Below, piece by piece: positions 13,205-48,610 of a DNA stretch of 49,850 nt. A program made the position numbers and the translations under genes. Source of the stretch: an uncultured Desulfobacteraceae bacterium (GTDB lineage Bacteria > Desulfobacterota > Desulfobacteria > Desulfobacterales > UBA11574). The stretch is from contig CAZDAB010000001.1 in NCBI GenBank assembly GCA_964502855.1, positions 1 to 49,850 on the forward strand. The letters are read 5' to 3'. Numbering within the stretch: the stretch's first letter is position 1; the number at the start of each line of letters is the position of its first letter. The notes under the pieces were generated by a model, which saw only the letters and a program-made list of their open reading frames with translations, did not search any database and was not told where the DNA came from.

Positions 13205-14485
13205 TTATTCAATAGGTATTAAACGCACATTCAGGGGAGTTTCGCCGGGGTTGCTAATCTGCAGCTGTGCCTCCCACTCAAGATAATCCGGAAGGCTGAC
13301 CCGAACTTCGTATTTCCCAATTGGAATTTCAAGGTTTATGGGGGTATTGCCTTTAAGTGAATCATTTAAAAAAACTTGAGCCCCGGAAGGTGAACTGGTC
13401 ACCATTAGAATTGCATCTACAGGCTTGTTCGCCTCGACACGGGTCGATAAGGAAGATTCAGATTTACCTGTAGTATCCTGCAATTTGGCAGGTTGAAACG
13501 ATTCCGTTACAGCAGATTTTTCGCCATTCGACAGTAATGACGCCTGCTTTTTATGTGCTCCAAAAAAATAGATTGCCCCTCCAAGAACAACTGCCGCCAT
13601 TAGACCCATAATTAAAACAGATGCCACAGGTTTTTTTTTGGGGCTTACCGGTTTTTCGGAGAATAAAAGAAATTCTTTTACCTGAAGACAGGTTTTAAGG
13701 GCATCGCCCATTTCCTTACCGGTTTGAAAGCGTTCATCGGGATTTTTAGATAGGGCTTTCATGATTAGATCAGAGAGCGACTGGGGGATTGACGTGTCAA
13801 TTTTTAAAGGTGCCACGGGAATGTCATCTGTAATGGCCCTGAAGATGGCAGTAAAATGATCTCCCTCAAACGGCTTACGACCCACAATCAATTCATAAAG
13901 GACAACTCCAAGGGAAAACAGATCAGATCGCCCGTCAATCCTTTTCCCCATAACCTGCTCCGGTGACATATAGAAAGGGGTCCCTAAAATCACTCCTGTC
14001 TGGGTTTGTTGAGCCGCATTTGAATCTTCTGCACGGGCAATCCCGAAATCGGTTAGTTTTACCCCCCCCTCATCAGTCAATATAATATTGGAGGGTTTAA
14101 TATCCCTGTGGACAATCCCTTTATTATGAGCATAGCCAAGAGCATGTGCGACCTGTAAAGCAATATCGATTATTTCCTCGACATTCAATCTTCCACTACG
14201 AATCACTTCATTAAAGGCTTGCCCCTGAAGATATTCCATAGCAATGTAAATGGTTCCATGGTCTCGCCCGACATCATATACCGTAACGATATTGGGATGA
14301 GAAAGTCGACCGATGAATTTTGCCTCTTTAAAAAACCGCGACACAAACTCTTCGTTGACCACGCGGTCCACCCGTAACACCTTTAACGCAACCGGTCGGT
14401 CAATCTGAGGATCGTGGGCTTGATAAACCACGCCCATCCCGCCTTTGCCCAATTCTTTTATAATTTCATATCGTCCGTATTTCAT
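13205..14485 (-). CDS. Hanks-type Ser/Thr protein kinase with one TM helix and a C-terminal extracytoplasmic PEGA domain
   Basis: Kinase motifs GKGGMGVVY, VALK, HRDIKPSNIIL, DFGIA and SPEQ. TM helix VLIMGLMAAVVLGGAIYFF. PEGA-like SSPSGAQVFLNDSLKGNTPINLEIPIGKYEVRVSLPDY. Confidence 0.9.
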   Translation of the reverse strand: MKYGRYEIIKELGKGGMGVVYQAHDPQIDRPVALKVLRVDRVVNEEFVSRFFKEAKFIGRLSHPNIVTVYDVGRDHGTIYIAMEYLQGQAFNEVIRSGRLNVEEIIDIALQVAHALGYAHNKGIVHRDIKPSNIILTDEGGVKLTDFGIARAEDSNAAQQTQTGVILGTPFYMSPEQVMGKRIDGRSDLFSLGVVLYELIVGRKPFEGDHFTAIFRAITDDIPVAPLKIDTSIPQSLSDLIMKALSKNPDERFQTGKEMGDALKTCLQVKEFLLFSEKPVSPKKKPVASVLIMGLMAAVVLGGAIYFFGAHKKQASLLSNGEKSAVTESFQPAKLQDTTGKSESSLSTRVEANKPVDAILMVTSSPSGAQVFLNDSLKGNTPINLEIPIGKYEVRVSLPDYLEWEAQLQISNPGETPLNVRLIPIE

Positions 14486-14643: not shown

Positions 14644-15372
14644 TCATAGTATTTCAGCGAGAACCACTGTGATATTATCCTTTCCTCCGGCGGATATGGC
14701 CATTTCAATAAGTTTTTCAGTCTGTTGGGGCAAGGCAATGTCTGAATAAAGGACCTGGCCGATGAGATGGTCATCGATCATATCGGTCAGGCCGTCTGAG
14801 CAGAGAAGAAACAGATCGCCGGAATACGTTTTCCCTTTTAAAATATCGAGAGCTAAATTTTCATTGATGCCCACGGCTCGCAGGATGACGTTGCGAAGGG
14901 AATGGCTTTTAGCTTCTTCAGGTGTAATCAACCCCTGATCTATCTGGTCCTGCACAAGAGAATGATCCTTGGTAAGCTGCTTAAGTTGACCATTCCGGAT
15001 ACGGTAGATTCGGCTGTCTCCAATATGGCCGATTAAAAAGCCGTGCTCGTGAAAAGCCACGAGTTCAGCGGTGCAGCCCATTCCCTGGTGATGGGGATTC
15101 TCCCTTACATACTCTAAAATCCTTTCATGGGCGGAACGGAACGTCTTTTTAACCTTCTCAAGCATGTTATCTTCAGATTGATCATTATCGGCTGAAAAAA
15201 CTTCAAGTGCTGTTTCAGTAAACATTCGACTGGCCAATTCACCGGCGGCAGCACCGCCCATTCCATCCGACACAAGGCAAAATCCAATATCAGGTTTGAT
15301 GAGAAACGTATCTTCGTTATTCGGGCGAATAAGCCCAACATCTGTTTTTCCAAAATAATTTATTTTTGACAT
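14644..15372 (-). CDS. PP2C-family Ser/Thr protein phosphatase (Stp/PppA-like)
   Basis: PP2C motifs RPNNEDTF, VSDGMGG, GCTAEL, IGDSRIY, LLCSDGLTD and GGKDNITVV. Confidence 0.9.
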   Translation of the reverse strand: MSKINYFGKTDVGLIRPNNEDTFLIKPDIGFCLVSDGMGGAAAGELASRMFTETALEVFSADNDQSEDNMLEKVKKTFRSAHERILEYVRENPHHQGMGCTAELVAFHEHGFLIGHIGDSRIYRIRNGQLKQLTKDHSLVQDQIDQGLITPEEAKSHSLRNVILRAVGINENLALDILKGKTYSGDLFLLCSDGLTDMIDDHLIGQVLYSDIALPQQTEKLIEMAISAGGKDNITVVLAEIL

Positions 15373-15419: not shown

Positions 15420-17054
15420 TTAGGTCGTTTCTTCGGTTGCTCCGAAGTTCTTCCTCATGAATTCTGAAAGATCGGAGGCATCGTAAGATTTATTCAATTT
15501 ATTTCTCAGGATTATCAGATCATTATGGATTTCCTGCGTGGTTTGATACCTTAATTTTTTATCTTTTTCCAAACATTTCATCACAATTCTGTTTAGCGCT
15601 TCCGGGATATCCGGCCTTAGGCTGATCAGAGGGGGAATCTCTATTTTAGGAATGGAGCGAATGGCCTCTATATGATTATCAAATCGATACACCTTATTAT
15701 AGGAAAGTATTTCATAAAAGACGAGCCCCAGTGCATAGATATCAGCCTGATGGTCTACCTCCTGCCCCAGTACCTGTTCAGGAGCCAAATAAGATAGTTT
15801 TCCTTTAATTACACCGGCCTGGGTCATACTGGGCTCAGAACGTGCTTTGGAAATTCCAAAATCGGCTATTTTCACTTCTCCTAGAAATGAAATCAGCATG
15901 TTTTGGGGGCTTATATCCCGATGTACAATATGTAACGGTTCGCCACTTCTATCATCCTTTCTTGTATGGGAGTACGTCAGTCCCATACATATTTTCATTA
16001 TAATAAAAATGGAAAGATCAACAGGAAGCCCTTGTTTTAAGTGCGCCATGATTTCACCCAGGTTTTTTCCCGGAATATAGTCCATTGCAATTAAATAAGC
16101 GTTCTGTATCTTACCGAAATCAATAATCTGGACGATGTTTGGGTGTTGTAGCAACGCGGCGAGCCTGGCTTCACGAATAAACATTTTTATAAAATCTTGG
16201 TTTTCGGATAGGTGGGGAAGTATTTTTTTAATGGCAACCGTTCTCCGAAAACCATCTTCACGAATGTAGTCCGCGATAAACAGCTCGGCCATTCCGCCCT
16301 TTGCGATCTGCTTTATTAACACATAAGGACCGATTTTTACCATTCCTTCGACTTCTTTCCGAATTTTTCTTGCTTTTGCCCGGAAGATACGATCAACAAA
16401 AAATAAAATCACCGCCGCCAGAATGGTGCTAAGGAACAGCATTGACAAAAATATCATCCGGAATCTGCTTAACGCATGGTTAAGTTCCGTGGAAGACATC
16501 ACGTAATATACCTTGCCGATTTTTACCCCGGAATAGGAGATATCTTGGGAAAAGCGGAAAAGCGGTTTATTGTCATCTCCTCCTTTTCCGGTCTCAATAT
16601 ATACACCATCAACGATTTTTACCTCTCTTAAATCCTTAAAAGACATCAATGGACGGTTGGTCATCTCAGGGTCGGAGTGCGCCAGGACCTTATTTTTGTG
16701 GTCAAGGATCGCCGCAAAAACCAGATTTTTGTTTTTTGCAAATTCCCCGATAGCAACATTCAAAGTAAGTACATCTTTTGCCAGCAACGAGGAACTGGTT
16801 TTTGCAGACAGGCTCTGGGTCGCAGATATCCCTTTTTGATAAAAATCATTTTTCAGGCCCGTTACAGCATTGTGGTATATTAAAAAGCCGCATACATTAA
16901 TGATTAGCCAGGAGGTAAGACATATAACAATGCTTTTTTTGTTCCGTTTAACAAACTCAATACTAAATAGTTTTTTGGAAATAGCAGAAAAGGTTTTTGT
17001 TGAAAATTGTTTTACCCATAACATAGTCGTTGAAACTTTTTCACTAACACTCAT
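15420..17054 (-). CDS. Hanks-type Ser/Thr protein kinase with an N-terminal TM-flanked extracytoplasmic sensor-like domain
   Basis: Kinase motifs AKGGMAELF, VAIKK, HRDISPQNMLI, DFGISK and APEQ. An N-terminal ~200 aa is bounded by two TM helices. I prefer ATG 17054 (RBS GGGGAG) over the tracked TTG 17090. Confidence 0.85.
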   Translation of the reverse strand: MSVSEKVSTTMLWVKQFSTKTFSAISKKLFSIEFVKRNKKSIVICLTSWLIINVCGFLIYHNAVTGLKNDFYQKGISATQSLSAKTSSSLLAKDVLTLNVAIGEFAKNKNLVFAAILDHKNKVLAHSDPEMTNRPLMSFKDLREVKIVDGVYIETGKGGDDNKPLFRFSQDISYSGVKIGKVYYVMSSTELNHALSRFRMIFLSMLFLSTILAAVILFFVDRIFRAKARKIRKEVEGMVKIGPYVLIKQIAKGGMAELFIADYIREDGFRRTVAIKKILPHLSENQDFIKMFIREARLAALLQHPNIVQIIDFGKIQNAYLIAMDYIPGKNLGEIMAHLKQGLPVDLSIFIIMKICMGLTYSHTRKDDRSGEPLHIVHRDISPQNMLISFLGEVKIADFGISKARSEPSMTQAGVIKGKLSYLAPEQVLGQEVDHQADIYALGLVFYEILSYNKVYRFDNHIEAIRSIPKIEIPPLISLRPDIPEALNRIVMKCLEKDKKLRYQTTQEIHNDLIILRNKLNKSYDASDLSEFMRKNFGATEETT

Positions 17055-17099
17055 AATTTTCTCCCCGCCATTGCAGACAATCGTGGCCAATAATACCGG

Positions 17100-18421: not shown

Positions 18422-19330
18422 ATGATGAATAGACCGGTTATTGTTATGCAGCTTATTCATATTGAGGGGCCTTTGAAAGGCGAAATCCAGGAATTTTCTA
18501 ATCCTGAAATCTCCATTGGAAGGCATCCGTCCTGTCACATTCAGTTTCCCAAAGACGTAAAAATTGTTTCCCGAAAACATGCCCAGATTATCCGGGAGGG
18601 GAATCGGTTTAAACTGATTAATCATAGCCAAAACGGAACATTTTTAAACGGAAAAAGAATCCCGGAAGCGTATTTAAAAGACGGGGACGTGCTGATTTTT
18701 GCCCAAGGCGGGCCAAAGGTTAGTTTTTTAACAAAAATTGAAGCGGGTCAGACGGATATCGATATCGTAACACCCGTTACACCGGTGCCACCTCAGATGC
18801 CTCCGGAAATGCCTCCGGCAGTCCCCTCTGCTGAACCGCCCCCGGTGCCGCCGATCCAACCAAAACCACAGCCTGCTCCTGAAATTTCCATTCAAAAAAT
18901 ACAGGTTCCGCTCATTATACAATACGGCCCTACGCTCCGGTCCTTTAATGAACTGCCCGTTACCATCGGAAAAGGCCCGGGCTGCGATTTTATTCTGGAT
19001 CACCCTTCAGTTTTCGATCAACATGCCCAGCTATTTTTCAGCCAGAATCGATACTGGGTAAAAGACCTTACCGGCCGTCAGTCTGTGTCCATTAACGACC
19101 AGCCAATCAATATTAAATCACCCCTCAATCCCAACAACCAGTTGGCATTGAGTCCACAGGGACCCAGGTTTCGGTTTTTGGAAGGGGGCCGGTTGGCTGA
19201 GATTGAAGAAACTGTCTCCGAATCTCCGGTGGATGAGGCGCCTGTGGAAAAGAAATCCTCACTCCAGACAAAACCCAAAATGGATGGGGCTAAAAAGCCG
19301 GGGTCAATTTTTAAAAAATTATTCTCTTGA
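18422..19330 (+). CDS. cytoplasmic protein with two FHA domains separated by a proline-rich linker
   Basis: FHA1: ISIGRHPSCHIQFPKDVKIVSRKHAQIIREGNRFKLINHSQNGTFLNGKRI. FHA2: VTIGKGPGCDFILDHPSVFDQHAQLFFSQNRYWVKDLTGRQSVSINDQPI. Linker: PVTPVPPQMPPEMPPAVPSAEPPPVPPIQPKPQPAP. Confidence 0.85.
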   Translation: MMNRPVIVMQLIHIEGPLKGEIQEFSNPEISIGRHPSCHIQFPKDVKIVSRKHAQIIREGNRFKLINHSQNGTFLNGKRIPEAYLKDGDVLIFAQGGPKVSFLTKIEAGQTDIDIVTPVTPVPPQMPPEMPPAVPSAEPPPVPPIQPKPQPAPEISIQKIQVPLIIQYGPTLRSFNELPVTIGKGPGCDFILDHPSVFDQHAQLFFSQNRYWVKDLTGRQSVSINDQPINIKSPLNPNNQLALSPQGPRFRFLEGGRLAEIEETVSESPVDEAPVEKKSSLQTKPKMDGAKKPGSIFKKLFS

Positions 19331-19335: not shown

Positions 19336-20853
19336 TCAGCCTTGTAATCTCGCTTTTTCCGAAGCCAGTGGATTATCAAAATTATATCCGAACAGACGGG
19401 GATTTTCACCGATGACTGCGGCAGAGAAAATCGAAAAAACGTAATCATACGTTTGGGCGGGGATCTTATCGCGGTATTGGGAAATCAATTGCCAGAAATT
19501 TCTTTCACGCGGATTTTCGGGCATGGACTCAATCAGTTTAATCACCCGATCTTCGCCCCAATTGTAGGATGCCATTACAAGCAGCCCGGAAGCCTGGGCG
19601 TCCGTGGTATAAATATCCTTCAAGTACCTCGCGGCGGCCAGGGTTGATTTTCTAAAATCGTGGCGGTCATCATCAGGGTCGGGAATGGGTTTGTCGACCA
19701 GGGAGCCCGTATTCAAGTCATATGCCTCGGCGGTTGAAGGGATAAACTGCCACATCCCCTTGGCGATGCCGAACCGAGTTTCCGGGCCGCAGGCATTGGG
19801 GTTTAAATTGCTTTCTTGAAGGGCCAGATAAAAAAATTGCGGCGGCAGGTTATACATAGAAAGGGTCTGAACGATTGTAGGAATGTAACCTCTTGACCTT
19901 GCCCGTTTGATCGCTTGTTCCAGACGGTGGTTTGATTTCCATTTCTCGACATATTTCATGACTTCTTTGACAAATCCTTCGGGCATATTGACTTCACACT
20001 CCCCAAACCGGCGCGACACGTGCAAAATGATCCGCTCCTCCTCACTCAACCCTTTGCGGTACACGTTAAGCGTATCCACAAACCGGTCATAATTTCGTTC
20101 CAATTGCTGTTGTTTGGCCCTGAATTCTTTAATTTGCTTTTTAGACTCGGCGGTCCGGCGCTTTTTGACATCTTTTATCACCTTTCCTACCTCAATTTCC
20201 AGAGTCTTCATGTTGTAGAAAATATCAGCAGCCAGCTCGCGCTGCTGGCGCACTTGTCTATGTTTGTAAACGGCATAACCGCCGGTCAGGATGCACAAAA
20301 CCGCAATAACCGAAATAATTGAGACATACATCCACCGCTGTTTTTTTTTGACCTCGGCATAGGCTCGGCGCACCATCAGAGTATGTTCGCCAGCAGTATC
20401 ATCTGCTGTCTGGCCGAAGTAATGCTCTTTGTAGTCGCTGATCGTTCGGGAATCGGAAACAGGGGATTCGGGAACAGAGGGTTCGAGAACAGGAGGTTCG
20501 GAAACAGGAGGTTCGGAAACAGGGGGTTCTTGCAGCACGGCTTTTTCAAGTTCAAATATAAGGCCAGGCCCGGAAATACCCAAGCGGACGCGGATAGTAC
20601 CGGATAGCGGAAACCGGTCAATTTTGCGGTCTTCGATAAACACCCCGTTACCACTTTCCAGATCTTGAATCCACCAGCGGCCGTCTTCTTTAAACACATC
20701 CGCATGATACCGGCTGACCCCTTTGTTTTTGATCTGCAACTGACAGCTTGAATGCCTTCCGATGCGAAACCGATCTGTAAAAACAAATTCAGTGACAGCA
20801 GCCAATCCGCTTTCAATTCTAACCTTCAGTGTCGGGGCGTCGGAAGATCCCAT
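19336..20853 (-). CDS. FHA domain - single TM helix - SLT-type lytic transglycosylase fusion protein
   Basis: N-terminal FHA (FRIGRHSSCQLQIKNKGVSRYHADVFKEDGRWWIQDLESGNGVFIEDRKI). TM helix WMYVSIISVIAVLCILTGGYAVY. C-terminal SLT motifs LALQESNLNPNA, GIAKGMWQFIPSTA and MASYNWGEDRV. Confidence 0.85.
   Translation of the reverse strand: MGSSDAPTLKVRIESGLAAVTEFVFTDRFRIGRHSSCQLQIKNKGVSRYHADVFKEDGRWWIQDLESGNGVFIEDRKIDRFPLSGTIRVRLGISGPGLIFELEKAVLQEPPVSEPPVSEPPVLEPSVPESPVSDSRTISDYKEHYFGQTADDTAGEHTLMVRRAYAEVKKKQRWMYVSIISVIAVLCILTGGYAVYKHRQVRQQRELAADIFYNMKTLEIEVGKVIKDVKKRRTAESKKQIKEFRAKQQQLERNYDRFVDTLNVYRKGLSEEERIILHVSRRFGECEVNMPEGFVKEVMKYVEKWKSNHRLEQAIKRARSRGYIPTIVQTLSMYNLPPQFFYLALQESNLNPNACGPETRFGIAKGMWQFIPSTAEAYDLNTGSLVDKPIPDPDDDRHDFRKSTLAAARYLKDIYTTDAQASGLLVMASYNWGEDRVIKLIESMPENPRERNFWQLISQYRDKIPAQTYDYVFSIFSAAVIGENPRLFGYNFDNPLASEKARLQG
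20451..20529. repeat. in-frame 15-bp tandem repeat (~5.3 copies) encoding (E)PPVS repeats in the FHA-SLT linker
   Basis: Units aatcggaaacagggg / attcgggaacagagg / gttcgagaacaggag / gttcggaaacaggag / gttcggaaacagggg. Protein: EPPVSEPPVSEPPVLEPSVPESPVSD. Confidence 0.85.
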
Positions 20854-26045: not shown

Positions 26046-26189
26046 GGCAACACCTCTCAATGCGAAGAGAATATGCATTAATCCCCACATTAAATTTAAT
26101 CTTTTCATTGAATATATGGCCGTAAGCCCTATAATATCTTGCAAAACCCGGCCACTTATTATGTCCCATCCGAGTCGCCCCCTTCGTAG

Positions 26190-38730: not shown

Positions 38731-39510
38731 CTACCGAGCATCCGTGTGGGCTGACCAGAGTCCGACAAAATCGCTGGCATTTAAAGACCGGTTAAAAACA
38801 GCCAGAAAACGTTTTTCAGGGACTCCACCCAAAAATACCGCATTGGGAACATCTGAACTGTTTACTTTTAACAAAAAGTTCCAACGGCTCGCAATATCAA
38901 GGGGATCTTCGTCGATCTGGATGTCAAGGGGTACCAGACATTCCATTTTTTTAGCCAGGCAATCCGCTTTTTCCTTTATTTGATCATTGTCCTTTGAGAT
39001 TGTCAAGGCGTTAGTCAAAGATTGAAGTTTTCCCTGGTTTCTGCTTTGAGATTTCCATTCCAGCCAGTCAGGCTTAGGGTTCTTAATGGCACAGACCTCA
39101 TATTCCAGCCCCTTTAAATTTTCAAACCGCCTTGAGGATATGTATTCAATCTGATCCCAGGTTGTTTCAAAAGCATGGGGGAGAAGATCCCAATGGTCTT
39201 CCCATCCGTCAAGCATACCATCTCCCATAATAATAAGCGGATAGGGCCGTCCGATACTGTCGCTGCTGTCTTTTGCGACACCGCAAATCAGGTTTCCCTT
39301 TTTTATACCTTTGGCCCAAAAGCGCCAGGAATACATACACTGGGTAGAGAGTTGCTTGCTGCTTAAAACCTGATACCCCTTTTCAACCCATCTTTCAAAT
39401 GCAGCTAACAGGGAGGTGTTCAGGCTTAAACGAAAATAATCCCTTGCCACCGGGTGTTTGCCGCAGGCCGCCCAATTCCATCTGTTTTTGGGTTTTCCTA
39501 TTCCCAGCAT
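38731..39510 (-). CDS. tagF: T6SS-associated protein TagF (DUF2094 family)
   Basis: The N-terminal motif WAACGKHPVARDYF resembles the TagF G-K-x-P-x-x-x-D-[FY] signature. The gene lies immediately downstream of tssM and overlaps it by 13 nt, as in H1-type clusters. Confidence 0.75.
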   Translation of the reverse strand: MLGIGKPKNRWNWAACGKHPVARDYFRLSLNTSLLAAFERWVEKGYQVLSSKQLSTQCMYSWRFWAKGIKKGNLICGVAKDSSDSIGRPYPLIIMGDGMLDGWEDHWDLLPHAFETTWDQIEYISSRRFENLKGLEYEVCAIKNPKPDWLEWKSQSRNQGKLQSLTNALTISKDNDQIKEKADCLAKKMECLVPLDIQIDEDPLDIASRWNFLLKVNSSDVPNAVFLGGVPEKRFLAVFNRSLNASDFVGLWSAHTDAR

Positions 39511-42500
39511 TTTGCAATACTCCGGGGGATTCTTCCAGGCGCCGACAGGAGGAGTTTTAAAACCGGCCGGTGTCCTTTGAATTGATATTTCACGGTTATG
39601 AATCTAATTCCTATCCTTTTAAGCGCCGATTCTTCAGCGGGAAACTCACTGCGGTAAAATGTATGCTGGCCGCTTTCAAAATCTTTGATAAACTTCGGAA
39701 ATGCTTGATATCCTGTATATATTTTTGTAAGAACGATGTCCTCCACTTTTATCGTAAAGATAACATCCCCACAGGTTTGGGGTGACCAGTTGAACGTTTT
39801 TTTTACCGGGTAATTTAGATTGACCAATCTTGGCGTTTCTGATGCACATTGAAGTTCCAGGATGGTTTCCTGAGGTCTTATAAAGGCGCCGCTATTGGCT
39901 CCCGTGGGAAAGGCTTTTATGGTCACACTATATGTCCCTTTTACCGGTTTTGCCGCTTTTGTGCCTTTGGTTAAGTAGGAGAGAAAGTATTCATTAAAGT
40001 CAATATTTTTACCCATCACCTTTTTAGCATAGTACCCTTTTTTCAACGTTCGACTAAGAAAAGGTTCTGCAGGTCCTTTAATGAATTTTATTGCAAAACC
40101 GTCCTCCCCCATAAGGAGCTGATTCGTGTCCTTCTGATCCGATACGTCCTGCATTTCCATCAGAACTTCTTTTTCCCATCGGCTTTGGAGGTAACAGGAG
40201 GATTCCCTTAAAACGAATTCATGGAAAAAATCTACTGGCCCGGTTACCAGTTCCCAGATTATTTCTGGGTTTGTTTTTGGTTTTATCAAAACGGTTTTTA
40301 ATTTTCTTAACGCATTTTGAGCCGTATAAAAGGGTGATTGGCTGGTAGCCGGATCTTCACTGTATATTTCAACCGCTATTTTGTAAGCAACAAGACTGGA
40401 TGCGGATACCGGTGTGATTTCATTCAGGGCGCTTTGATAATCATAAAAGGCTTTGCCGGCAAGCAAGCGAGATTCCATATTCAAAGCACCTTCTGCGGCT
40501 GTGCCAATCGCTTGTTTAGTCGGTGTTAATCTTGATTTTACTTTTCTCAAGAGGCCCAGCTTTTCGATGTTATTTTTCTTTATTGCTTCGGCTTGAAGTT
40601 TCACAGATTTAAAATCGTAAACAAAATTTACCCATCCGGGGCACTTTTCCCCTTTGGAAAAGGGGTTCAGTTCTTTGGCCATCATTGCGAATAAGGCAAA
40701 ATAGGGATTCTGATCCGAACCCATTCCGGCAGCAACCTCTTCCCATTTCTCCTTGCCTTTAAGACGATCGGGTCCTTTGGGAAAAACCGTTGCAAAATCA
40801 TACCAGGCTTGCAAATATTCTTGAGAATACCATTTTTCAAATTTGAGTTTCTGCTCGGCAATGATCAAGGGATCAAAAAGAGCGGACTCAATCTCTTTTA
40901 GAAAAAGGTCGATCTGGTCTTTTCCATGGATGGTAAAGGAGGGAAGTACGCTTACATCATTAGGATTTTTCAAACCTTCCCCCCAGAAATCGGCCAAAGT
41001 CACCGGCAAAAAAGCCGGATCTGAATTGACCCAACTGATCAGCCAGTTCAAGGTTGCACCTTCAAATGTCAAAATGTGTTTCAGCCAGGTTTGCAGATTG
41101 TTCATTTCTTGATTCAAGCTTGCCTTATCCTGCCGCCAGATTAAAAAATAAAGATACAATTGGGTTAGCTTTTTGCTGACTTCTGGGATCAGGTTTTGAT
41201 CTGCTCCCGATACAAAGGTGTCAAAGGGGGGTTGAGACCGGGATTGAAGTCCTTCAAGGCCTTCACCTAAAATCCGACCATTAATGAGATTGATACGTCT
41301 CACCAGATGTGCTGCATATTTTCCGAGGGTTTCCCGGGTAGTAGCGGCAGAAAACAGTGTCATGGTATCCGCCATCTGCTTGTCAAAAGAAACTAAAAAA
41401 CGATTGCGAAACTGTTTACAAAACTTTTCTTTTAATTTTTTTTCAACATTTCTGCTTTCATTTAATCCAAGCCGCGGAACCCACCAGCTATTATTTTGCC
41501 TTTCCGCTTTAGAAACCGCTTTACGAAATTGATCCATGGTAATCGTATCCGATAGGATTTCGCCCTGTAATACCGGCGGCTTGGAAAATTCGTGCGAAAC
41601 ATCCCTGAGCGTTTTTAAGTTTTTCACAAAGGAAAAGCTTAACAGTCCACAGACAGCAACACAAATGGCAACCCAGGAAGTCAGTCCCATATTTCTGGTC
41701 AGTCGGCTCCATTCAAGGGTTCGCTGGGTAGGAGAAAACAGTCCCCTGTCGATGGGTAGTATTTTTGAGAAAAAATCATGCAGAAACAATCCTTTATCGG
41801 TTCCGGGCAGAACTTCTTTTTCTTCGATAAGACCCAGTTCCTTTAAAAAGTGGGAATACGGACTCCCCTCCTGCTTGCCGCTGCTAAAGAAAAAACCTCG
41901 TAAAATCGGCGTTTCCTGATATGGATTTTCCTGAAAAGCACTTCGAATAAAAGCATCCAGACCCGCTTTTAGTTTCTCAAATTCTTCGGGAAACAACACA
42001 AGACTCGGATCAGCACCTTTGGACTCAGGCTTGTGAAAAAGGAGGAGCCTTAAATCTTTCAGCCGTTCTCCAAGGGTATGCATTGTGCGGCGGCTAAATT
42101 CAGCAGCGTCTTTTGAAAGTTCATGGTTCAAAACGCCCATGGCCTGATCATGGCCTTTTTCAGAAATCCGATCACAAAATTGGGTCATTCCTTGAATTAA
42201 ATCACACTTTGTCACCAGCACATAAACCGGAAATTTTGCACCCAATACCCGCATCAGTTCATCGATACGTCGGCGAATACTTTTGCCCGACGCCTCAATT
42301 AATTCCGGGCCGGTATCGAGTAATTTATCAGCGGCAATGGTCACCACAAGACCATTTAACGGCTCTTTTTTCCTGAATTTGATTAAAAGAGACAAAAACT
42401 TTTGCCATTCATCTTTATCGCGGCCCTCATCTACGGGAATGGCATACCGACCGGCGGTGTCGATAAGTATGGCCTGTTCAAAAAACCACCAATCACAATT

Positions 42501-42977
42501 CTTTGTACCGGAAATCCCGGATGTGCGACTCACTTCAGCAAAAGGCGATGAAAGACGAGCGCTTTTAATGGCGGTAGTTTTGCCGGACCCGCTCTCTCCG
42601 ATCACCATATACCATGGCAGTACGTAAAGCGGATTACCGTATTTTTTCAGGTGGGATTTCCGCAACGTCTCCATGGCTTCTTTCCAGCGATCCTGAAGTT
42701 CCTGTGAGTTTTTCCTCTCTTTATCCCCAAGTGATTTCAGATAGTGTTGATCCTGCTCTATTACCTGATTGACAAAGCGCTCTTCGCGGCGCCGGCCCAG
42801 AACTTTTTTAAGGAAAACAAGACCCAAGCCGATACCCACAAGACCCGTAAGGATAAAAAAGCCCACCCACCACGGCCAGCCAATACCCAATACAAGACCG
42901 AAAACCAGTAGAACGGCAAAGAGAATCAACGTGACAATAAGAAAGATCTTTATTATCTTTATAATAAGCTGTTTCAT
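39498..42977 (-). CDS. tssM: T6SS membrane complex subunit TssM (IcmF)
   Basis: Three N-terminal TM helices. Walker A GESGSGKTTAI. ~1160 aa. Adjacent to tssL. Confidence 0.95.
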   Translation of the reverse strand: MKQLIIKIIKIFLIVTLILFAVLLVFGLVLGIGWPWWVGFFILTGLVGIGLGLVFLKKVLGRRREERFVNQVIEQDQHYLKSLGDKERKNSQELQDRWKEAMETLRKSHLKKYGNPLYVLPWYMVIGESGSGKTTAIKSARLSSPFAEVSRTSGISGTKNCDWWFFEQAILIDTAGRYAIPVDEGRDKDEWQKFLSLLIKFRKKEPLNGLVVTIAADKLLDTGPELIEASGKSIRRRIDELMRVLGAKFPVYVLVTKCDLIQGMTQFCDRISEKGHDQAMGVLNHELSKDAAEFSRRTMHTLGERLKDLRLLLFHKPESKGADPSLVLFPEEFEKLKAGLDAFIRSAFQENPYQETPILRGFFFSSGKQEGSPYSHFLKELGLIEEKEVLPGTDKGLFLHDFFSKILPIDRGLFSPTQRTLEWSRLTRNMGLTSWVAICVAVCGLLSFSFVKNLKTLRDVSHEFSKPPVLQGEILSDTITMDQFRKAVSKAERQNNSWWVPRLGLNESRNVEKKLKEKFCKQFRNRFLVSFDKQMADTMTLFSAATTRETLGKYAAHLVRRINLINGRILGEGLEGLQSRSQPPFDTFVSGADQNLIPEVSKKLTQLYLYFLIWRQDKASLNQEMNNLQTWLKHILTFEGATLNWLISWVNSDPAFLPVTLADFWGEGLKNPNDVSVLPSFTIHGKDQIDLFLKEIESALFDPLIIAEQKLKFEKWYSQEYLQAWYDFATVFPKGPDRLKGKEKWEEVAAGMGSDQNPYFALFAMMAKELNPFSKGEKCPGWVNFVYDFKSVKLQAEAIKKNNIEKLGLLRKVKSRLTPTKQAIGTAAEGALNMESRLLAGKAFYDYQSALNEITPVSASSLVAYKIAVEIYSEDPATSQSPFYTAQNALRKLKTVLIKPKTNPEIIWELVTGPVDFFHEFVLRESSCYLQSRWEKEVLMEMQDVSDQKDTNQLLMGEDGFAIKFIKGPAEPFLSRTLKKGYYAKKVMGKNIDFNEYFLSYLTKGTKAAKPVKGTYSVTIKAFPTGANSGAFIRPQETILELQCASETPRLVNLNYPVKKTFNWSPQTCGDVIFTIKVEDIVLTKIYTGYQAFPKFIKDFESGQHTFYRSEFPAEESALKRIGIRFITVKYQFKGHRPVLKLLLSAPGRIPRSIAKCWE

Positions 42978-43655
42978 TTACGGCACCGTGCTGATAAAAG
43001 TTTGTCCGATATTGTTTAAAACAAAACGGTAAATCAAAAACAAAATCCAGTAAAAAACCACTGGAGAGCAAAGGCATATTAAGGTAAACGATGAAAAACG
43101 CCTTCTTGTCTTTAAGGGCGCGGCCTCGACAGACTCAGCCGGGTATGACTCCGGAAAAAGTTCCCGTTTGTCAAGGGAGGGTATTCCCAGAGAACTCCCG
43201 GTAAGGAGCTTTAGATTCGATGTTTTTAGCTGCTCCAACAGGTATTCATCCCCTTGATGACAGTATTGTCCGGTAAAATTCATAGCCAGGCAGAGATAAT
43301 AGACCTCTCTCACATCTCGCTGGTGAGGACCTATGGTGTTAAGCCGCTCGAAAAAAATCTCTCCGGCATCCGCGGTATGGTAATACAGGCGCTGAAGCTG
43401 TTCCCGCTGCCACTGTGCTCTTCCCTTCCATGAGGAATTCATAATAATTTCATCAACCCATGCAAAAACCGCAAAACGAGCCAAATCATAATCCTCCCTG
43501 GGAACCGTTCCATCGTCAAGATATTTTTCGCTTTGTGTGATAAGACGCTGGATGTCGGTTCTAACCTGATCGTAGGAGGGTTGTTTTTCAGCTCCCGATT
43601 TTACCAAGTAGGCGATATAAGCGATGATGTTAATAAAGCAGTCGATCAGACGCAT
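42978..43655 (-). CDS. tssL: T6SS membrane complex subunit TssL (DotU family), short form without a peptidoglycan-binding extension
   Basis: DotU-like FAVFAWVDEIIMNSSW and REVYYLCLAMNFTGQY. Single C-terminal TM helix. The protein ends shortly after the TM helix. Confidence 0.85.
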   Translation of the reverse strand: MRLIDCFINIIAYIAYLVKSGAEKQPSYDQVRTDIQRLITQSEKYLDDGTVPREDYDLARFAVFAWVDEIIMNSSWKGRAQWQREQLQRLYYHTADAGEIFFERLNTIGPHQRDVREVYYLCLAMNFTGQYCHQGDEYLLEQLKTSNLKLLTGSSLGIPSLDKRELFPESYPAESVEAAPLKTRRRFSSFTLICLCSPVVFYWILFLIYRFVLNNIGQTFISTVP

Positions 43656-43657
43656 AT

Positions 43658-45043
43658 CTAGGTCCTCCTCACAACCATAAGTTCCGCCTTCAAATCCTGT
43701 GGCGCTGCATCCCAGTAAAGTGCGAGATTATTCCCCTTTTGTACCTGATCCCACTGATCGCTATGGTGGTCGATCTGAAAATATATTGAATGTGCCCGCC
43801 GCGGCAGTTCCTGCGGAGGGATTGCAAGGTGATCGAGTTTTATCCCGGAAAGGGACCGGGCTATCAGAATGGGCAGCGTCTGCCTGGAGCTCAGCTTGGC
43901 GATCTTTCCCATGGTTTGAAGTACATTTTTAGGATCGGTCTCTGTTTCAAAAACCAGGAAAAATTGGTTTCGCCCTTCAAAGATTGTGGGCGGTAATTCT
44001 GCGGAAAAATAGGTCCCGTCGTACAGTAACTGAATAATATATTCCGGACCGGCGGTGATTTCGTCCAATAGCCGGGTAATCAGTAGTTTTGCGCCCGAAA
44101 AGCATTCCCATAAATTTTGATGGTCGTAACCCAATAAAAGCGAAGTTCCATGCTCTTGTTCTCCATTTACGGAAATATTTCCGGAAAATGAAGATAATTC
44201 CCCAATCACTTGTCTTAAAACAGAATACATTGACCATGGGTGGATTCTTTTGGTTTCGGTCAAATGCGTTAGAAGTGGTATATAACGGTTCAACGATCTT
44301 AATGCCAAAAGATAGACCATGTCTTTTGTCCCGAATTCCGCGCTGTGGATTCCCCTTTCCCGTTTGTAAGTTTCAAGCTGTCGTCCACGGGAGGAGATCT
44401 GGTCCCTGATTTCCGGAACAAGTTTGTTTAAAGTTTCAGACCCGGAAATGCATAGACAGGGGGGGATAAACTGTTTTGAAAGAACTATTTCGTCGCCATC
44501 TTTTTCCAAACAGGCAAGCGGGATAAGTTCATAATCTCCCAGAAGATCCATTTCCGTTTCCCAAAATATTTTCAACACATAGTAAAGCCTTTTTACCTCA
44601 GCCGATGGACCATTCTGATGTAAATCCTGTATCTCTTCAGGTTGGGTAGTAGTGACAAATCGGGTAGTAACATCAAAAAGATTATTGAGGCTGGACAAGA
44701 CCGTTACATTTTCTCCGGCATCATTCCATTTTTTAAGGCCCACATACACCGTAAAGGTTTTACCCCCTTCTTCCCATGCCGATTCAAAGGATCGGGCCTC
44801 TATCACGGCATTATCCGGGAAACCCGTATAGGTCATATCCGGGAATAAAAAATTTCCACTTAAAAGATCAAAGGAACGATTTCCAAGAGCTGCTTGCTGA
44901 ATCTCAATATCACCGATTCCCCAAAAATGAGGATTGATAAATCTGTGGAAAGGGATCAGCAATGATTGATCATAAAGATCTTTAAGCTGAAAATGCTGGG
45001 GCTGTAAAAAAAGGCCTTGATGCCAGAAAATCGGTCTTCTCAT
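43658..45043 (-). CDS. tssK: T6SS baseplate subunit TssK
   Basis: N-terminus RRPIFWHQGLFLQPQHFQ is the TssK hallmark; ~460 aa. Confidence 0.9.
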   Translation of the reverse strand: MRRPIFWHQGLFLQPQHFQLKDLYDQSLLIPFHRFINPHFWGIGDIEIQQAALGNRSFDLLSGNFLFPDMTYTGFPDNAVIEARSFESAWEEGGKTFTVYVGLKKWNDAGENVTVLSSLNNLFDVTTRFVTTTQPEEIQDLHQNGPSAEVKRLYYVLKIFWETEMDLLGDYELIPLACLEKDGDEIVLSKQFIPPCLCISGSETLNKLVPEIRDQISSRGRQLETYKRERGIHSAEFGTKDMVYLLALRSLNRYIPLLTHLTETKRIHPWSMYSVLRQVIGELSSFSGNISVNGEQEHGTSLLLGYDHQNLWECFSGAKLLITRLLDEITAGPEYIIQLLYDGTYFSAELPPTIFEGRNQFFLVFETETDPKNVLQTMGKIAKLSSRQTLPILIARSLSGIKLDHLAIPPQELPRRAHSIYFQIDHHSDQWDQVQKGNNLALYWDAAPQDLKAELMVVRRT

Positions 45044-45047: not shown

Positions 45048-45584
45048 CTATTTTCCTCCCACGGTTTCTATCTGCTGCGGCCCTAAAATCAGTTCAATAT
45101 TCAAGGGGCCGGGTTTTTGAATCCTTTTGCGTTTAAAAAACCCCTTTTCCTCCACCACAACCGGAATATCGAACAGCCGTATCATACGATCTTTCCGAAG
45201 CGTAAAATATCCTGCAACAATAGATAGATATTTGGCCCCCTCGGCTCGATCCAAAACAAAATTCATATCCTGTCCCGGGCGAGCAATCAATTTTTTTGAT
45301 GTGGCCACCGCAGAATCAAAAAGCCCGCATTCCAATAGGTTATAAATTCCGTCATTATCCCCGGCAAGCTGGTTAAATGCATTTGGATCTTTTAACTGAT
45401 ATACACAGACATAAAGTGTATGCGGTGTTCCTTCCTCCAAATTTAATTTTGGATCAGCCTTAATGTGCAGCTTGATCGCCTCTTTTTCATATTGCCACTG
45501 AGGAGGTAGAAGCGGCTGGGATGCACATGCATATATCATTGAACTAACCATCACCAAAAACAGGGCATTAAGATAATGTTTCAA
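45048..45584 (-). CDS. tssJ: T6SS outer-membrane lipoprotein TssJ (SciN family)
   Basis: Lipobox MIYAC. KLHIKADPKLN...LYVCVYQLKDPNAFNQL matches the SciN pattern. Located upstream of tssK. Confidence 0.8.
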   Translation of the reverse strand: MKHYLNALFLVMVSSMIYACASQPLLPPQWQYEKEAIKLHIKADPKLNLEEGTPHTLYVCVYQLKDPNAFNQLAGDNDGIYNLLECGLFDSAVATSKKLIARPGQDMNFVLDRAEGAKYLSIVAGYFTLRKDRMIRLFDIPVVVEEKGFFKRKRIQKPGPLNIELILGPQQIETVGGK

Positions 45585-45594: not shown

Positions 45595-46311
45595 TTATTT
45601 TTCCATTAAATTTTGGCAGTTTTTTTCAAATTCTCGTAAAAATTCCTCCATGAATCGACCGGATTCAAACCACTTTTTTATCCTACGAAATTTTTCTTCG
45701 TATATTTCATAATATTCTGCTTTTCGGAGGGGACCGATCTTCAGCCCCCCGCCTCCTTGGGCAGAGATTCGGTCCGGATCAATTTCTTCAAGTATTTGGC
45801 CCACTTTAATCTGAGCAGTTTTTTTAAAGGAATGCTGGACCGTTAAAAAAGCTTCGTTTATTTGTCCGAGGTAGCTTTCCAGTGATTTTGTCTGTTCGTC
45901 TCCTTCAAGGTGAAAACCGATGACCTGACGGATGGTTTGGTCTCCGAAAGTCTCTCCGGTTAGCGTCATATTAATAACGCCAATTAACTGATTCAACGAA
46001 TCAAAAATAGTCTTCAACGATTCCGCCAACCGTTCTATGAGTTCTGTTGAAGAAAGATCGGTCCCGGAAACATCTCTTCCCAGCAAAAATGAAAATGTCC
46101 GGGGTATTATACTATTATCTATCCTGATTGGGTGCCTGCTGTCAAATTCATCAATCAATTTATTTAGCACATCTAAACTCTCGGGTCCGGATAGTTCTTT
46201 GAACCTGTTAGTTAAGAATTTTTCAATCTGCTTTTCCGACTGATTCTTATCTGAAATATAAATGTTTCTGATTTCATTTGCCAACCGGTCTATGGGTATG
46301 GGATCGCTCAT
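45595..46311 (-). CDS. TagH (Fha1) C-terminal-domain-like protein with no FHA domain
   Basis: Occupies the position immediately upstream of tssJ-tssK-tssL-tssM-tagF, where fha1/tagH sits in H1-type clusters. The C-terminus (RKAEYYEIYEEKFRRIKKWFESGRFMEEFLREFEKNCQ) recalls the TagH C-terminal region. No FHA motif is present, even in the 37-codon upstream extension (tracked start 46422). I prefer ATG 46311, 4 nt after the upstream stop. Confidence 0.55.
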   Translation of the reverse strand: MSDPIPIDRLANEIRNIYISDKNQSEKQIEKFLTNRFKELSGPESLDVLNKLIDEFDSRHPIRIDNSIIPRTFSFLLGRDVSGTDLSSTELIERLAESLKTIFDSLNQLIGVINMTLTGETFGDQTIRQVIGFHLEGDEQTKSLESYLGQINEAFLTVQHSFKKTAQIKVGQILEEIDPDRISAQGGGGLKIGPLRKAEYYEIYEEKFRRIKKWFESGRFMEEFLREFEKNCQNLMEK

Positions 46312-46315
46312 GGCA

Positions 46316-48610
46316 TTACTTATTATTCTCTTTTTCGCCGGTAACGCTTTTTCCCGGAAGGATAAGAAGGGTCTCTTCCAGGAATTCGTCTGGTTCTGAC
46401 GGTTCAGCTTTTTTATGTTCACGGGTCGTCATTTCATCCGGCACACTGCCGCCTTTTATGGTGTCTTCAGGTCCTGAATTTTGCCGGGAAGGACTCGGGG
46501 GGACCTCAGAACATCCTAATGAGCCCTGCTCGGGGGAGATAATGACGGTTTCCGGAAGATCGTCTTCCTCAGGCGGAGATGATGGCGGCACATTTTGTCC
46601 CAAGCCATCCGGTGAAAAAATAACCGTATCTTCCATATCTTCATCATAGTGATCAAGTTTGTCAGCTGTTCCCGGTGGTTCCAGCCCTTCAGGCGTTAAT
46701 ATTAGAGTTTCATCCAAATCGTTTTCCGGAACCGGAGGCGCCTCGCCCGGTTCTTCTTTTTGTTCAATGCCGGTTAATTTTTCTGCCAATTTATCATCTG
46801 AAGAAATGATGACGGTTTGAAACACATCGGAATCTTCTTCAAAATCAGGCGCTGTTTTATCGTCTGTAGTGTCGTCTATTTCCGGCAAAACACGGCTTAT
46901 TTCCAAATCATCCGATGACGTTTCCTCCTCTTCTTGCCGGGTATTCATAATTTTCTTCAGTATATTATAAATGATTTTATCGTTGGCTTCAGATTCTTCA
47001 GCGGGGACAGAGGGTTCTGTTGAAAACAGGCGGTCCTTTATTTCTTGTCTGAGTTGCTCCAGCTCATGTCCGAATTCCTCTATCGACCTATCTCTTGAGC
47101 CAAGCATGCTGACCTCAAAAAAATGGAACCCCAAGCCCAGCGACGCTTTCCAGAATTTATGCCAATCCTGTTTAACAGATAATATATCGGGATTGAAAAA
47201 AATATTTTCAGGAGATAACACCTCAAGAAACCCGGATTCCAGATAATTTTCAAAGTTTGCATCATCCTGGGTTTTAATCTTCTCCATAACCTCTCCCAGA
47301 ACAGGATATACCTGGGAGACATCCTGTTTTCTGTTGACAAGCAGCGTATAAAACCAGATGAACCCCAAAAGATGAAAACCGTATGATCGGGGCAATTGCG
47401 GAATTGATGTAGACGGCAGGTCGGAGCCGATTACGTCGAATAACTCCACCTTGAAATTCCAGAAACACGGAAGCAGACTGTTTTGATCGGACAGGTTGAC
47501 CCAGATTCTATCCATGGATAATCCAAACTCGGGATACTGGAAACTATCGAGTCCTGAAAAAATAGCCTTTATAAGTTCACCAAGGAAAGAGAGTTTTAAA
47601 TACAATACTTCCAGGAAATATCGATCTTCATTTTGAAAGAAAAAGGGCGTGTGAATAGATCGTTTCTGTTTTAAACCTTTCAGACAGTTTAATCTGCCCG
47701 ACTGTTGTTTTTCTTTGAGACGGTCTTCTGTCTCTTTAAATGAGGCACCTGAAATTAAAGATAAAAAATCGAGCCCATTGACCAAACCGGCTTTAAAAAT
47801 CAGCATATAAAAAGGATAAAAAGACAAGGGAACGATTCTCGAAACCGCGAGACCGTCGGGACCGTAGCACTCTTGATGCCTGATGCAATTTACACATGGC
47901 AATTGACCGGCAAAATTTTTATTTCCGTTTAATTGATGAAATTTTTTTATTAATTCGTATCGATCTTTTAAAAATGCCGGATCGTTGTCATCCAATGAGG
48001 ATACATAAAAATCGGGTTTTTCCTTTGAACCGGTGCATGACGGACAAAACAGATAGCGTTTGAGAGACTCGGAATAAGGCCGGAGTCCATATCCCTGAAG
48101 CATGCTGTCATTATAACATTGTTGTAAAACCATACCACAATTTGGGCACAAAGGGTGAAAATAGGCCTGCTTAAATTTACAATAAAGTAACGGCTGAAAC
48201 GGAAGCAGTGCTCCGTTTTTATCGATCTGATCTTTTAATATCAAGGGAGCAGAGCCGGATTTTTCACGGGAATAAAAGGTAAATGCGTTCTGCCAGTACC
48301 GGTCAATCGCCCGGTTGTCAAGAGGCCAAAGTTCATCTCTCGACAGAGAATGTTCATCTTTCTGAATCAATAAAAATACCGGTTCAATATTCGTTCCGGC
48401 ATCCGTTTTAATCCTTGCTTCAATGATACGTGCAAAGGGTCCTGATTCGGATACAACCCAAAAAGGCAAGGAGGATTTTTGATGGATAGAATCATCCGGA
48501 TCGCCAACCGATACTTTTATATGAAATTTAGTTCCATCAGTCTTTAGATAGGGAATCAGAGAGGGTGTCTTTATTATATCAATTATATCATTCACTCTGA
48601 AATTCCTCAT
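46316..48610 (-). CDS. operon-leading 764-aa protein of unknown family: N-terminal ~540 aa with Cys-pair zinc-ribbon motifs, then a C-terminal acidic/Pro-rich tail with five T-x-x-(I/L/F) motifs
   Basis: Long uninterrupted ORF. It is the first gene of the co-directional T6SS gene train. CPNCG...CPSCTG and CVNC...EC cysteine pairs. The tail motifs are listed in the findings. Confidence 0.7.
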   Translation of the reverse strand: MRNFRVNDIIDIIKTPSLIPYLKTDGTKFHIKVSVGDPDDSIHQKSSLPFWVVSESGPFARIIEARIKTDAGTNIEPVFLLIQKDEHSLSRDELWPLDNRAIDRYWQNAFTFYSREKSGSAPLILKDQIDKNGALLPFQPLLYCKFKQAYFHPLCPNCGMVLQQCYNDSMLQGYGLRPYSESLKRYLFCPSCTGSKEKPDFYVSSLDDNDPAFLKDRYELIKKFHQLNGNKNFAGQLPCVNCIRHQECYGPDGLAVSRIVPLSFYPFYMLIFKAGLVNGLDFLSLISGASFKETEDRLKEKQQSGRLNCLKGLKQKRSIHTPFFFQNEDRYFLEVLYLKLSFLGELIKAIFSGLDSFQYPEFGLSMDRIWVNLSDQNSLLPCFWNFKVELFDVIGSDLPSTSIPQLPRSYGFHLLGFIWFYTLLVNRKQDVSQVYPVLGEVMEKIKTQDDANFENYLESGFLEVLSPENIFFNPDILSVKQDWHKFWKASLGLGFHFFEVSMLGSRDRSIEEFGHELEQLRQEIKDRLFSTEPSVPAEESEANDKIIYNILKKIMNTRQEEEETSSDDLEISRVLPEIDDTTDDKTAPDFEEDSDVFQTVIISSDDKLAEKLTGIEQKEEPGEAPPVPENDLDETLILTPEGLEPPGTADKLDHYDEDMEDTVIFSPDGLGQNVPPSSPPEEDDLPETVIISPEQGSLGCSEVPPSPSRQNSGPEDTIKGGSVPDEMTTREHKKAEPSEPDEFLEETLLILPGKSVTGEKENNK

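What the first reader, a model, noticed from the sequence alone, without database searches (positions are those of the whole stretch)
45595..46422. The gene at the fha1/tagH syntenic position encodes no FHA domain
The order X-tssJ-tssK-tssL-tssM-tagF reproduces the P. aeruginosa H1 arrangement fha1-tssJ1-tssK1-tssL1-tssM1-tagF1, so X is positionally equivalent to Fha1/TagH. X has a helical, charged C-terminus resembling the TagH C-terminal region. It has no FHA signature (no G-R...S-R-x-H...N-G-T/V pattern), even if the longest possible start is used. The pThr reader seems to have been uncoupled from the TagH scaffold and moved to other proteins in the locus.
Basis: partly seen in the sequence, partly recalled or inferred. 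Interest (0 to 1): 0.6.

Follow-up and report, generated by a model that had tools for sequence, protein, structure and literature searches.

The report
FHA-less TagH tail with partners
The gene in front of tssJKLM encodes only a distant copy of the tail domain of the type VI secretion regulator TagH; the threonine-rich linker and the phosphothreonine-reading FHA domain sit on separate, co-inherited proteins, an undescribed split form of this regulator that is conserved across sulfate-reducing bacteria.

Summary
X is a 238-aa protein (ATG at 46311; the GTG at 46422 lies inside the upstream gene). It sits directly before tssJ-tssK-tssL-tssM-tagF and has no FHA domain.

X belongs to a family of about 240-aa stand-alone proteins:
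- 58 of 64 members match Pfam T6SS_FHA_C (the TagH C-terminal domain).
- A family profile matches FHA-bearing TagH proteins from the same phylum at 92% probability (E 4e-7). Reversed and shuffled controls give nothing.
- Only the last 80-115 residues align with confidence. X itself scores below the Pfam cut-off.

X is not a lone remnant:
- In 66 of 71 species loci, the gene just upstream (or fused to X) carries a disordered tail with 2-7 copies of the motif DDLxETVILSP. The threonine is invariant.
- In most loci that tail hangs on a new 545-aa cysteine-rich domain (the window's 764-aa gene).
- Natural one-chain fusions exist.
- A tandem-FHA protein, in a kinase/PP2C module, has strong orthologues in 13-14 of 15 genomes with X and in 0 of 286 without.

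My reading is that TagH is dismantled into linker, tail domain and a trans-acting FHA reader. Phosphorylation of the motif is inferred, not shown. I rate it a new variant of a known kind.

The parts
45595..46311 (-). X: 238-aa FHA-less protein. It has an N-terminal helical module of about 46 aa, then about 190 aa colinear with the TagH C-terminal domain (PF20232).
46312..46422 (-). Open-frame extension up to the GTG. It is not part of X; it overlaps the 3' end of the upstream gene in another frame.
   Evidence: homologues are 238-254 aa and start at the equivalent Met
46976..48610 (-). Upstream partner gene ('BIG'), N-terminal domain of 545 aa. It has 8 invariant Cys, no Pfam family and no fold match in the PDB.
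46316..46975 (-). BIG tail, residues 546-764: a helix (IYNILKKIMNTRQ) followed by a disordered acidic region. It carries five [DE]xxx[EQD]-T-[VL]-[IL]-[IF] motifs, with Thr at residues 599, 635, 662, 688 and 747 (codons 46814-16, 46706-08, 46625-27, 46547-49, 46370-72).
45048..45584 (-). tssJ
43658..45043 (-). tssK
42978..43655 (-). tssL (DotU)
39498..42977 (-). tssM
38731..39510 (-). tagF. In other systems TagF is the repressor that binds TagH/Fha.
18422..19330 (+). Tandem-FHA protein. FHA1 has the canonical GR..SRxH..NGT residues; FHA2 is degenerate. It is strictly co-inherited with X.
19336..20853 (-). FHA-TM-SLT protein. It is specific to this lineage and was not found in the other X-type islands.
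13205..14485 (-). Hanks-type Ser/Thr kinase with a PEGA domain. It is part of the conserved kinase-PP2C-2xFHA module.
14644..15372 (-). PP2C phosphatase. It is the conserved divergent neighbour of the tandem-FHA gene in other genomes.
15420..17090 (-). Second Ser/Thr kinase, with a Cache-type sensor domain.

Best explanation
X is the effector (C-terminal) module of a dismantled TagH. Canonical TagH is one chain: FHA domain, disordered linker, C-terminal domain. In this T6SS lineage the three parts are separate.
1. X carries a diverged TagH C-terminal domain plus a small N-terminal helical module.
2. The gene immediately upstream supplies the disordered linker. It is usually translationally coupled to X (4-nt overlap or gap) and sometimes fused to it. 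The linker is built as an array of 2-7 DDLxETVILSP motifs and usually hangs on a new 545-aa Cys-rich domain.
3. The FHA reader is a separate tandem-FHA protein encoded in the island's kinase/PP2C module.

Shown: the homology, the synteny, the fusions, the motif array and the co-inheritance.

Inferred:
- The island's Hanks kinases phosphorylate the invariant Thr of the motifs.
- FHA1 of the tandem-FHA protein docks on them (pT+3 = Leu/Ile).
- This multivalent contact switches or clusters the BIG/X complex.
- Through the TagH-like domain, the complex acts on the TssJLM/TssK assembly and is opposed by TagF and the PP2C, as in the Fha1/PpkA/PppA/TagF pathway.
For: - Homology to the TagH C-terminal domain: PF20232 hits in 58 of 64 family members. 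hhalign gives 92-93% probability, E 4e-7, with clean reversed and shuffled controls. The alignment is colinear over X 47-238 against the whole domain when relaxed.
- Position: X sits directly before tssJ in 78 of 80 species loci and in 12 of 12 longer loci carrying tssJKLM-tagF-tssA. Canonical TagH holds the same position in other loci of the phylum.
- Linker partner: 66 of 71 loci with upstream sequence carry a motif-bearing protein upstream of X or fused to it. Three genomes have a tail-only 126-132-aa form. Full fusions are P0301 (1061 aa) and L077 (934 aa). Tail-plus-X fusions are P0157, P0170 and P0260.
- Motif: 223 copies in 63 tails against 5.8+-2.4 in shuffles. Thr occupies position 0 in 154 of 154 cases, never Ser. 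The tail is disordered in the AlphaFold2 model.
- Reader in trans: the tandem-FHA orthologue is present in 13-14 of 15 genomes with X and 0 of 286 without. It lies in a conserved STPK-PP2C-2xFHA module in 11 of 11 islands examined. FHA1 keeps the GR/SRxH/NGT residues in all orthologues.
- TagF is present in every sufficiently long X-type locus. TagF is known to bind Fha (PMC5995506; the bioRxiv preprint read).
Against: - X itself scores below the Pfam cut-off (20.7 against 23.7 bits), and NCBIfam TagH (TIGR03354) gives nothing.
- Only the distal 80-115 residues align with posterior support. The rest of the domain equivalence rests on colinearity alone.
- The canonical TagH profile used for hhalign had only four sequences.
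- No structure of a TagH C-terminal domain exists for comparison.
- No phosphorylation, FHA-motif binding or X-TagF / X-membrane-complex contact was tested. An invariant Thr inside a beta-branched hydrophobic run could be structural (a beta-strand addition motif) rather than a phospho-acceptor.
- One genome with X (G233, 710 contigs) lacks a detectable tandem-FHA orthologue.
Confidence: 0.6

Rival explanations
1. X is a separate accessory-protein family that shares only one short module with TagH: a C-terminal helical hairpin of about 80 aa, for instance a common docking element for TagF or TssL/TssM. The rest of X is unrelated to TagH. The BIG/X pair then has a role of its own, structural or assembly-related, that does not depend on threonine phosphorylation.
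For: - Confident alignment covers only X 161-238, or 114-236 at most.
- The Pfam match covers only profile positions ~100-176 in all members.
- X has an extra N-terminal module that can be tandemly repeated, as in P0188 and P0243.
- The BIG N-domain is new, with no invariant catalytic residues.
Against: - The relaxed alignment is colinear across the whole PF20232 domain with matching length.
- X holds the same gene position as canonical TagH.
- The partner linker mirrors the TagH linker.
- Strict co-inheritance with a kinase/PP2C/FHA module is hard to explain without phospho-signalling.
Confidence: 0.25
2. The two-ORF arrangement in this window is an artefact or a recent gene fission. On this view BIG and X are really one roughly 1000-aa gene, broken by a frameshift in this metagenome-assembled genome.
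For: - Single-chain fusions exist: P0301 and L077.
- The X frame stays open for 37 codons upstream of its ATG.
- The genome is an incomplete MAG, 59% complete in 975 contigs.
Against: - Two separate ORFs with a short gap or a 4-8-nt overlap are the rule: 61 or more of 71 species, including complete genomes of cultured Desulfosarcina strains.
- Near-identical 238-aa proteins are called on other contigs.
- Some genomes have a tail-only upstream protein.
Confidence: 0.04
3. The similarity to TagH is chance. On this view X is an unrelated helical protein that merely occupies the first slots of the operon.
For: - X alone is sub-threshold in Pfam.
- All-helical, charged proteins are prone to spurious matches.
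- Foldseek finds nothing.
Against: - 58 of 64 members independently hit the same Pfam family at the same profile positions, some above the cut-off.
- The profile-profile score is 49, against 23 or less in 21 composition-matched controls.
Confidence: 0.05

Closest known systems
TagH / Fha1 (PA0081; VasC VCA0112; ImpI), the T6SS-associated FHA protein of the threonine phosphorylation pathway
   Same: - Same gene position at the head of tssJ/K/L/M.
- A C-terminal domain related to PF20232.
- Associated with a disordered Thr-bearing linker, a Hanks kinase, a PP2C phosphatase and TagF.
   Different: - X has no FHA domain on the chain.
- Its C-domain is highly diverged (sub-threshold; only the distal half is confidently aligned) and is preceded by an extra 46-aa helical module.
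- The linker is on a separate or fused upstream protein and is a regular array of DDLxETVILSP motifs.
- The FHA reader is a separate tandem-FHA protein.
Agrobacterium tumefaciens PpkA/TssL/Fha pathway (PMC3953482)
   Same: The FHA protein reads a phosphothreonine on another T6SS protein in trans, rather than on its own chain.
   Different: In Agrobacterium the ligand is a single pThr on the core protein TssL, and Fha still carries its own C-terminal domain.
Mycobacterium tuberculosis Rv1747: two FHA domains plus a pThr-bearing disordered linker that drive multivalent clustering (recalled from memory, not checked here)
   Same: Tandem FHA modules combined with several Thr sites in a disordered segment. 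This is a format suited to multivalent, phosphorylation-dependent clustering.
   Different: Rv1747 is an ABC transporter with all elements on one chain and no relation to T6SS. Here the second FHA domain is degenerate.
TagF-only T6SS clusters without Fha/TPP (Acinetobacter 'TSA' type; bioRxiv 10.64898/2025.12.08.692957)
   Same: The clusters keep TagF, while an Fha protein is not recognisable by standard annotation.
   Different: Those clusters lack the kinase, phosphatase and any FHA protein, and their TagF acts on Hcp. The locus here keeps a full kinase/PP2C/FHA module and a cryptic TagH tail.

Membership tests
[quoted passage not shown] | N-terminal FHA domain (PF00498) | tested here: not met
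   No FHA hit for the 238-aa or 275-aa form or for any of 64 family members. NCBIfam finds no family at E<=1.
TagH (TIGR03354) | C-terminal T6SS_FHA_C domain (PF20232), full length and above the cut-off | tested here: inconclusive
   X scores 20.7 bits against a cut-off of 23.7, and only over profile positions 108-175. 58 of 64 relatives hit the family, a few above the cut-off. hhalign gives 92% probability and E 4e-7, solid for the last 80-115 aa only.
TagH (TIGR03354) | Encoded at the head of the tssJ/tssK/tssL/tssM block of a T6SS locus | tested here: met
   (78 of 80 loci have tssJ next). Canonical TagH loci of the phylum show the same position.
TagH (TIGR03354) | Disordered linker carrying the kinase-targeted threonine (Thr362 in Fha1) | tested here: inconclusive
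   A disordered Thr-motif linker exists, but on the upstream gene or fused to X. Phosphorylation was not tested.
TagH (TIGR03354) | Substrate or partner of PpkA/PppA; bound by TagF | not testable with these tools
   Kinases, PP2C and TagF are encoded in the island. No interaction data exist.
Pfam PF20232 T6SS_FHA_C (domain family) | Score at or above the gathering threshold of 23.7 bits | tested here: not met
   X scores 20.7 bits. Some relatives pass: L008 30.9, P0123 27.0, P0154 25.9 bits.

The most novel reading that the evidence does not exclude
The BIG tail and the tandem-FHA protein form a multivalent phosphothreonine/FHA switch: 2-7 pThr motifs against a dedicated reader. The switch nucleates T6SS assembly, and X is the free-standing TagH effector domain that couples it to the membrane complex. 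This natural dissection would show that the TagH C-terminal domain works on its own.
Probability: 0.3. Interest if true: 0.75.

Novelty: new variant of a known kind. Interest (0 to 1): 0.6.

Why it matters
The function of the TagH C-terminal domain is still unknown, and so is how phosphorylated TagH triggers T6SS assembly (2026 review PMC13584744). This lineage separates the three parts of TagH onto different polypeptides, and the separation is kept across dozens of species. Each part can therefore be deleted, tagged or purified alone, including in cultured strains with complete genomes (Desulfosarcina alkanivorans PL12, D. widdelii PP31).

The finding also has a practical side. T6SS loci scored as lacking Fha by standard annotation can still hold a cryptic TagH tail and a full phospho-signalling module. 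It also defines two unannotated families (X and BIG) and a strong short linear motif, DDLxETVILSP, as a candidate FHA ligand.

Tried and rejected
- NCBIfam scan of X found no family.
- Sequence search of the PDB with the X-family profile and with the TagH profile found only FHA-domain structures. No TagH C-domain has been solved.
- Foldseek of the X model against the PDB gave nothing at E<=0.001. The 14-3-3 and other helical hits have TM about 0.2 and are noise.
- Foldseek of the BIG model gave nothing significant and no FHA-like fold. A run of protein-kinase hits at E 0.16-3 is only a hint.
- I tried to build one alignment for a fold of the natural fusion P0301, with BIG and X homologues as rows (A3). 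MAFFT spread the X sequences across the whole length, so A3 was dropped and BIG was folded alone.
A 14-sequence alignment worked.
- Literature searches for an FHA-less TagH, for T6SS_FHA_C, and for Desulfobacter-type T6SS with FHA found no description.
- The paper on TagF-Fha binding does not map the contact to a region of Fha.
- A cryptic FHA domain in the 37-codon upstream extension is rejected: it is too short, Pfam is negative, and it overlaps the upstream gene.
Full report
**1. What is at the coordinates**

The minus-strand ORF 45595-46422 exists. Its first 37 codons overlap the end of the upstream 764-aa gene (46316-48610) in another frame. More than 700 homologues are 238-254 aa long and begin at the equivalent methionine. 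The gene therefore starts at the ATG at 46311, 4 nt after the upstream stop codon, and encodes 238 aa.

Downstream genes, by Pfam and NCBIfam:
- tssJ, tssK, tssL, tssM, tagF and tagJ
- tssA, tssB and tssC
- hcp, tssE, tssF, tssG and clpV

**2. No FHA domain**

Neither the 238-aa nor the 275-aa version gives any FHA hit (Pfam E<=1; E<=0.1). None of 64 diverse family members does either. NCBIfam finds nothing.

The incomplete genome (59% complete) has no other PF20232 match. Its FHA domains all lie in this window. Two are in a 302-aa tandem-FHA protein (18422-19330, +) and one is in an FHA-TM-SLT protein (19336-20853, -).

**3. Is X related to the TagH tail?**

- X alone hits PF20232 (T6SS_FHA_C) at E 3.8e-4 and 20.7 bits, below the 23.7-bit cut-off. 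The match covers only X 166-230 against profile positions 108-175.
- At family level the link is firm. 58 of 64 members hit PF20232, the best at 1.4e-7, always at the same profile positions.
- I took four bona fide TagH proteins from genomes of the same phylum. Each has FHA plus a full-length PF20232 match at E 1e-41 to 1e-46.
- Profile-profile comparison of these with the X family gives probability 92-93% and E 4e-7.
- With relaxed alignment settings the match is colinear over X 47-238 against the entire TagH C-domain.
- The reversed profile and 20 column-shuffled TagH profiles score 23 or less (E>=0.011), against 49 for the real one.

The distal 80-115 residues are therefore homologous with good confidence. 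The equivalence of the proximal part is plausible but rests on colinearity only.

The AlphaFold2 model of X is an all-helical protein (pLDDT 87). It has no counterpart in the PDB, and no TagH C-domain structure has been solved. The first ~46 residues form an extra helical module that is tandemly repeated in a few relatives (P0188, P0243).

**4. X is half of a conserved two-gene unit**

The upstream 764-aa protein ('BIG') has no Pfam family. It is conserved, with more than 400 homologues, all annotated as hypothetical.

Its structure, from alignment and model:
- The first ~545 aa fold (pLDDT about 80) and carry 8 invariant cysteines.
- After a helix, the last ~200 aa are disordered.
- The tail holds five copies of an acidic T-[VL]-[IL]-[IF] motif, with Thr at 599, 635, 662, 688 and 747.

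Across 63 homologues the motif has these properties:
- The consensus is [DE][DE]D[LI]xETVILSP[DE].
- There are 223 copies, against 5.8+-2.4 in shuffled tails.
- The central residue is Thr in 154 of 154 cases, never Ser.

In a survey of 80 species-level loci:
- tssJ follows X in 78 loci. The other two are cut by contig ends.
- Of the 71 loci with enough upstream sequence, 61 have BIG with at least 2 motifs directly upstream.
- 3 have BIG with fewer motifs.
- 3 have a short motif-bearing protein.
- 1 is a full BIG-X fusion (L077) and 1 a tail-X fusion.
- 2 are unclear.

Three genomes of one family have only a 126-132-aa tail protein (a helix plus ETVIL motifs) before X. Other single-chain forms are P0301 (1061 aa: N-domain, linker, X domain) and P0157, P0170 and P0260 (linker plus X).

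The invariant companion of the X domain is therefore the Thr-motif linker. The Cys-rich domain is a frequent but dispensable addition. The two-ORF state is the norm, often with a 4-nt overlap, and is not an assembly artefact of this window.

**5. Where the FHA reader went**

In 301 genomes sampled across the phylum:
- X occurs in 15.
- Canonical FHA-TagH occurs in 4 other genomes, never together with X. It belongs to a clearly different T6SS subtype: TssK similarity is E 1e-29, against about 1e-200 among X-type loci.
- Strong orthologues (E<1e-40) of the window's tandem-FHA protein occur in 13 of the 15 genomes with X. A 14th has a fragment at a contig end.
- No such orthologue occurs in the 286 genomes without X. 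The next best hit is 5e-14 to a single FHA domain.

In 11 of 11 islands examined, the tandem-FHA gene sits in a conserved module: TPR/AhpC protein, PEGA-type Hanks kinase, PP2C, then divergently the tandem-FHA gene and a VipA/VipB-like fusion. A second Cache-type kinase is often present. Where contigs are long, this module is the far end of the same ~45-kb T6SS island (L033 and L034).

FHA1 keeps the pThr-binding residues (GR, SRxH, NGT) in every orthologue, while FHA2 has lost them. The FHA-SLT protein of the window was not found in the other X-type islands, so it is a lineage-specific extra.

**6. Mechanism**

The shown parts are:
- a diverged TagH tail domain at the TagH position
- a Thr-motif disordered linker next to it or fused to it
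- a dedicated kinase/phosphatase/FHA module co-inherited with it
- TagF in every sufficiently long locus

The inferred parts draw on the Fha1/PpkA/PppA/TagF pathway (PMC13584744, PMC5995506, PMC3953482). They also draw on two general properties of FHA domains, both from textbook knowledge: strict specificity for pThr over pSer, and frequent pT+3 Ile/Leu selectivity.
- The kinases phosphorylate the motif threonines.
- FHA1 docks on them.
- This contact activates or clusters the BIG/X complex at the TssJLM/TssK assembly site.
- The PP2C and TagF act as brakes.

**7. What weakens this**

- X is sub-threshold on its own.
- The proximal half of the domain equivalence is unproven.
- The TagH comparison profile had only four sequences.
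- No interaction or phosphorylation was tested.
- An invariant Thr in a beta-branched hydrophobic run could equally mark a beta-strand docking motif that needs no phosphate.

**8. Novelty**

Members are annotated as hypothetical proteins; one JGI record says 'PAS domain', which looks spurious. The 2026 review of T6SS accessory factors treats TagH only as an FHA protein. Full-text searches found no FHA-less TagH and no description of this family.

I rate it a new variant of a known kind. It is worth attention because it offers a natural dissection of TagH, present in cultured Desulfosarcina and Desulfatitalea strains.

Noticed in passing
window 46976-48610 (-): The folded 545-aa N-domain of the upstream protein has no significant PDB match. 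Its best weak Foldseek hits are nearly all protein-kinase domains (MAPKAPK2, PI4K2A, CurKC, JAK, EGFR; E 0.16-3, target-normalised TM up to 0.46). There is no invariant Asp, Lys or His, so if it is kinase-like it is a pseudokinase. It has 8 invariant Cys, including the pairs C155/C158, C189/C192 and C239/C242.
   Followed up: partly
L026 10461-10847 (-), L027 9037-9417 (+), L028 244-642 (+): In one family of genomes the gene before X is only 126-132 aa. It consists of the helix 'ILxKILEKW' plus two ETVIL motifs, which is the tail of BIG without the Cys-rich domain.
   Followed up: partly
P0188, P0243 (relatives of X): The first ~60 aa of X (a helical module, consensus L..EIR.IY.sd...AE..IE.fL...L) are repeated two to three times in tandem in some relatives. 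It is therefore an independent module added in front of the TagH-like part.
   Followed up: no
window 18422-19330 (+) and L033-L044: In the tandem-FHA protein, the second FHA domain has lost the Arg/Ser/Asn pThr-binding residues in all orthologues. All orthologues end in a basic 'FKK(L/I)F' tail after a short acidic 'EIEE' stretch.
   Followed up: partly
L033, L035, L038-L042 (next to the tandem-FHA gene); window 24477-26144 (-): In most other X-type islands the truncated VipA-VipB fusion paralogue (~522 aa) lies directly downstream of the tandem-FHA gene. In the window it has moved next to vgrG. The pairing suggests the sheath paralogue belongs to the regulatory module.
   Followed up: no
L108, L119, L120, L122 (Bacteriovoracaceae MAGs); L077 (binned as Dehalococcoidales): The X/BIG T6SS type also occurs in MAGs assigned to Bdellovibrionota, and in one bin labelled Dehalococcoidales. 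This points to horizontal transfer of the island or to mis-binning.
   Followed up: no
L029-L032 (canonical TagH loci of the same phylum): Canonical FHA-TagH loci in this phylum have the order tagH-tssK-tssL-tssM-PP2C-STPK. No tssJ or tagF was detectable with the window's proteins as queries. These loci never co-occur with X in the 301 genomes sampled.
   Followed up: partly
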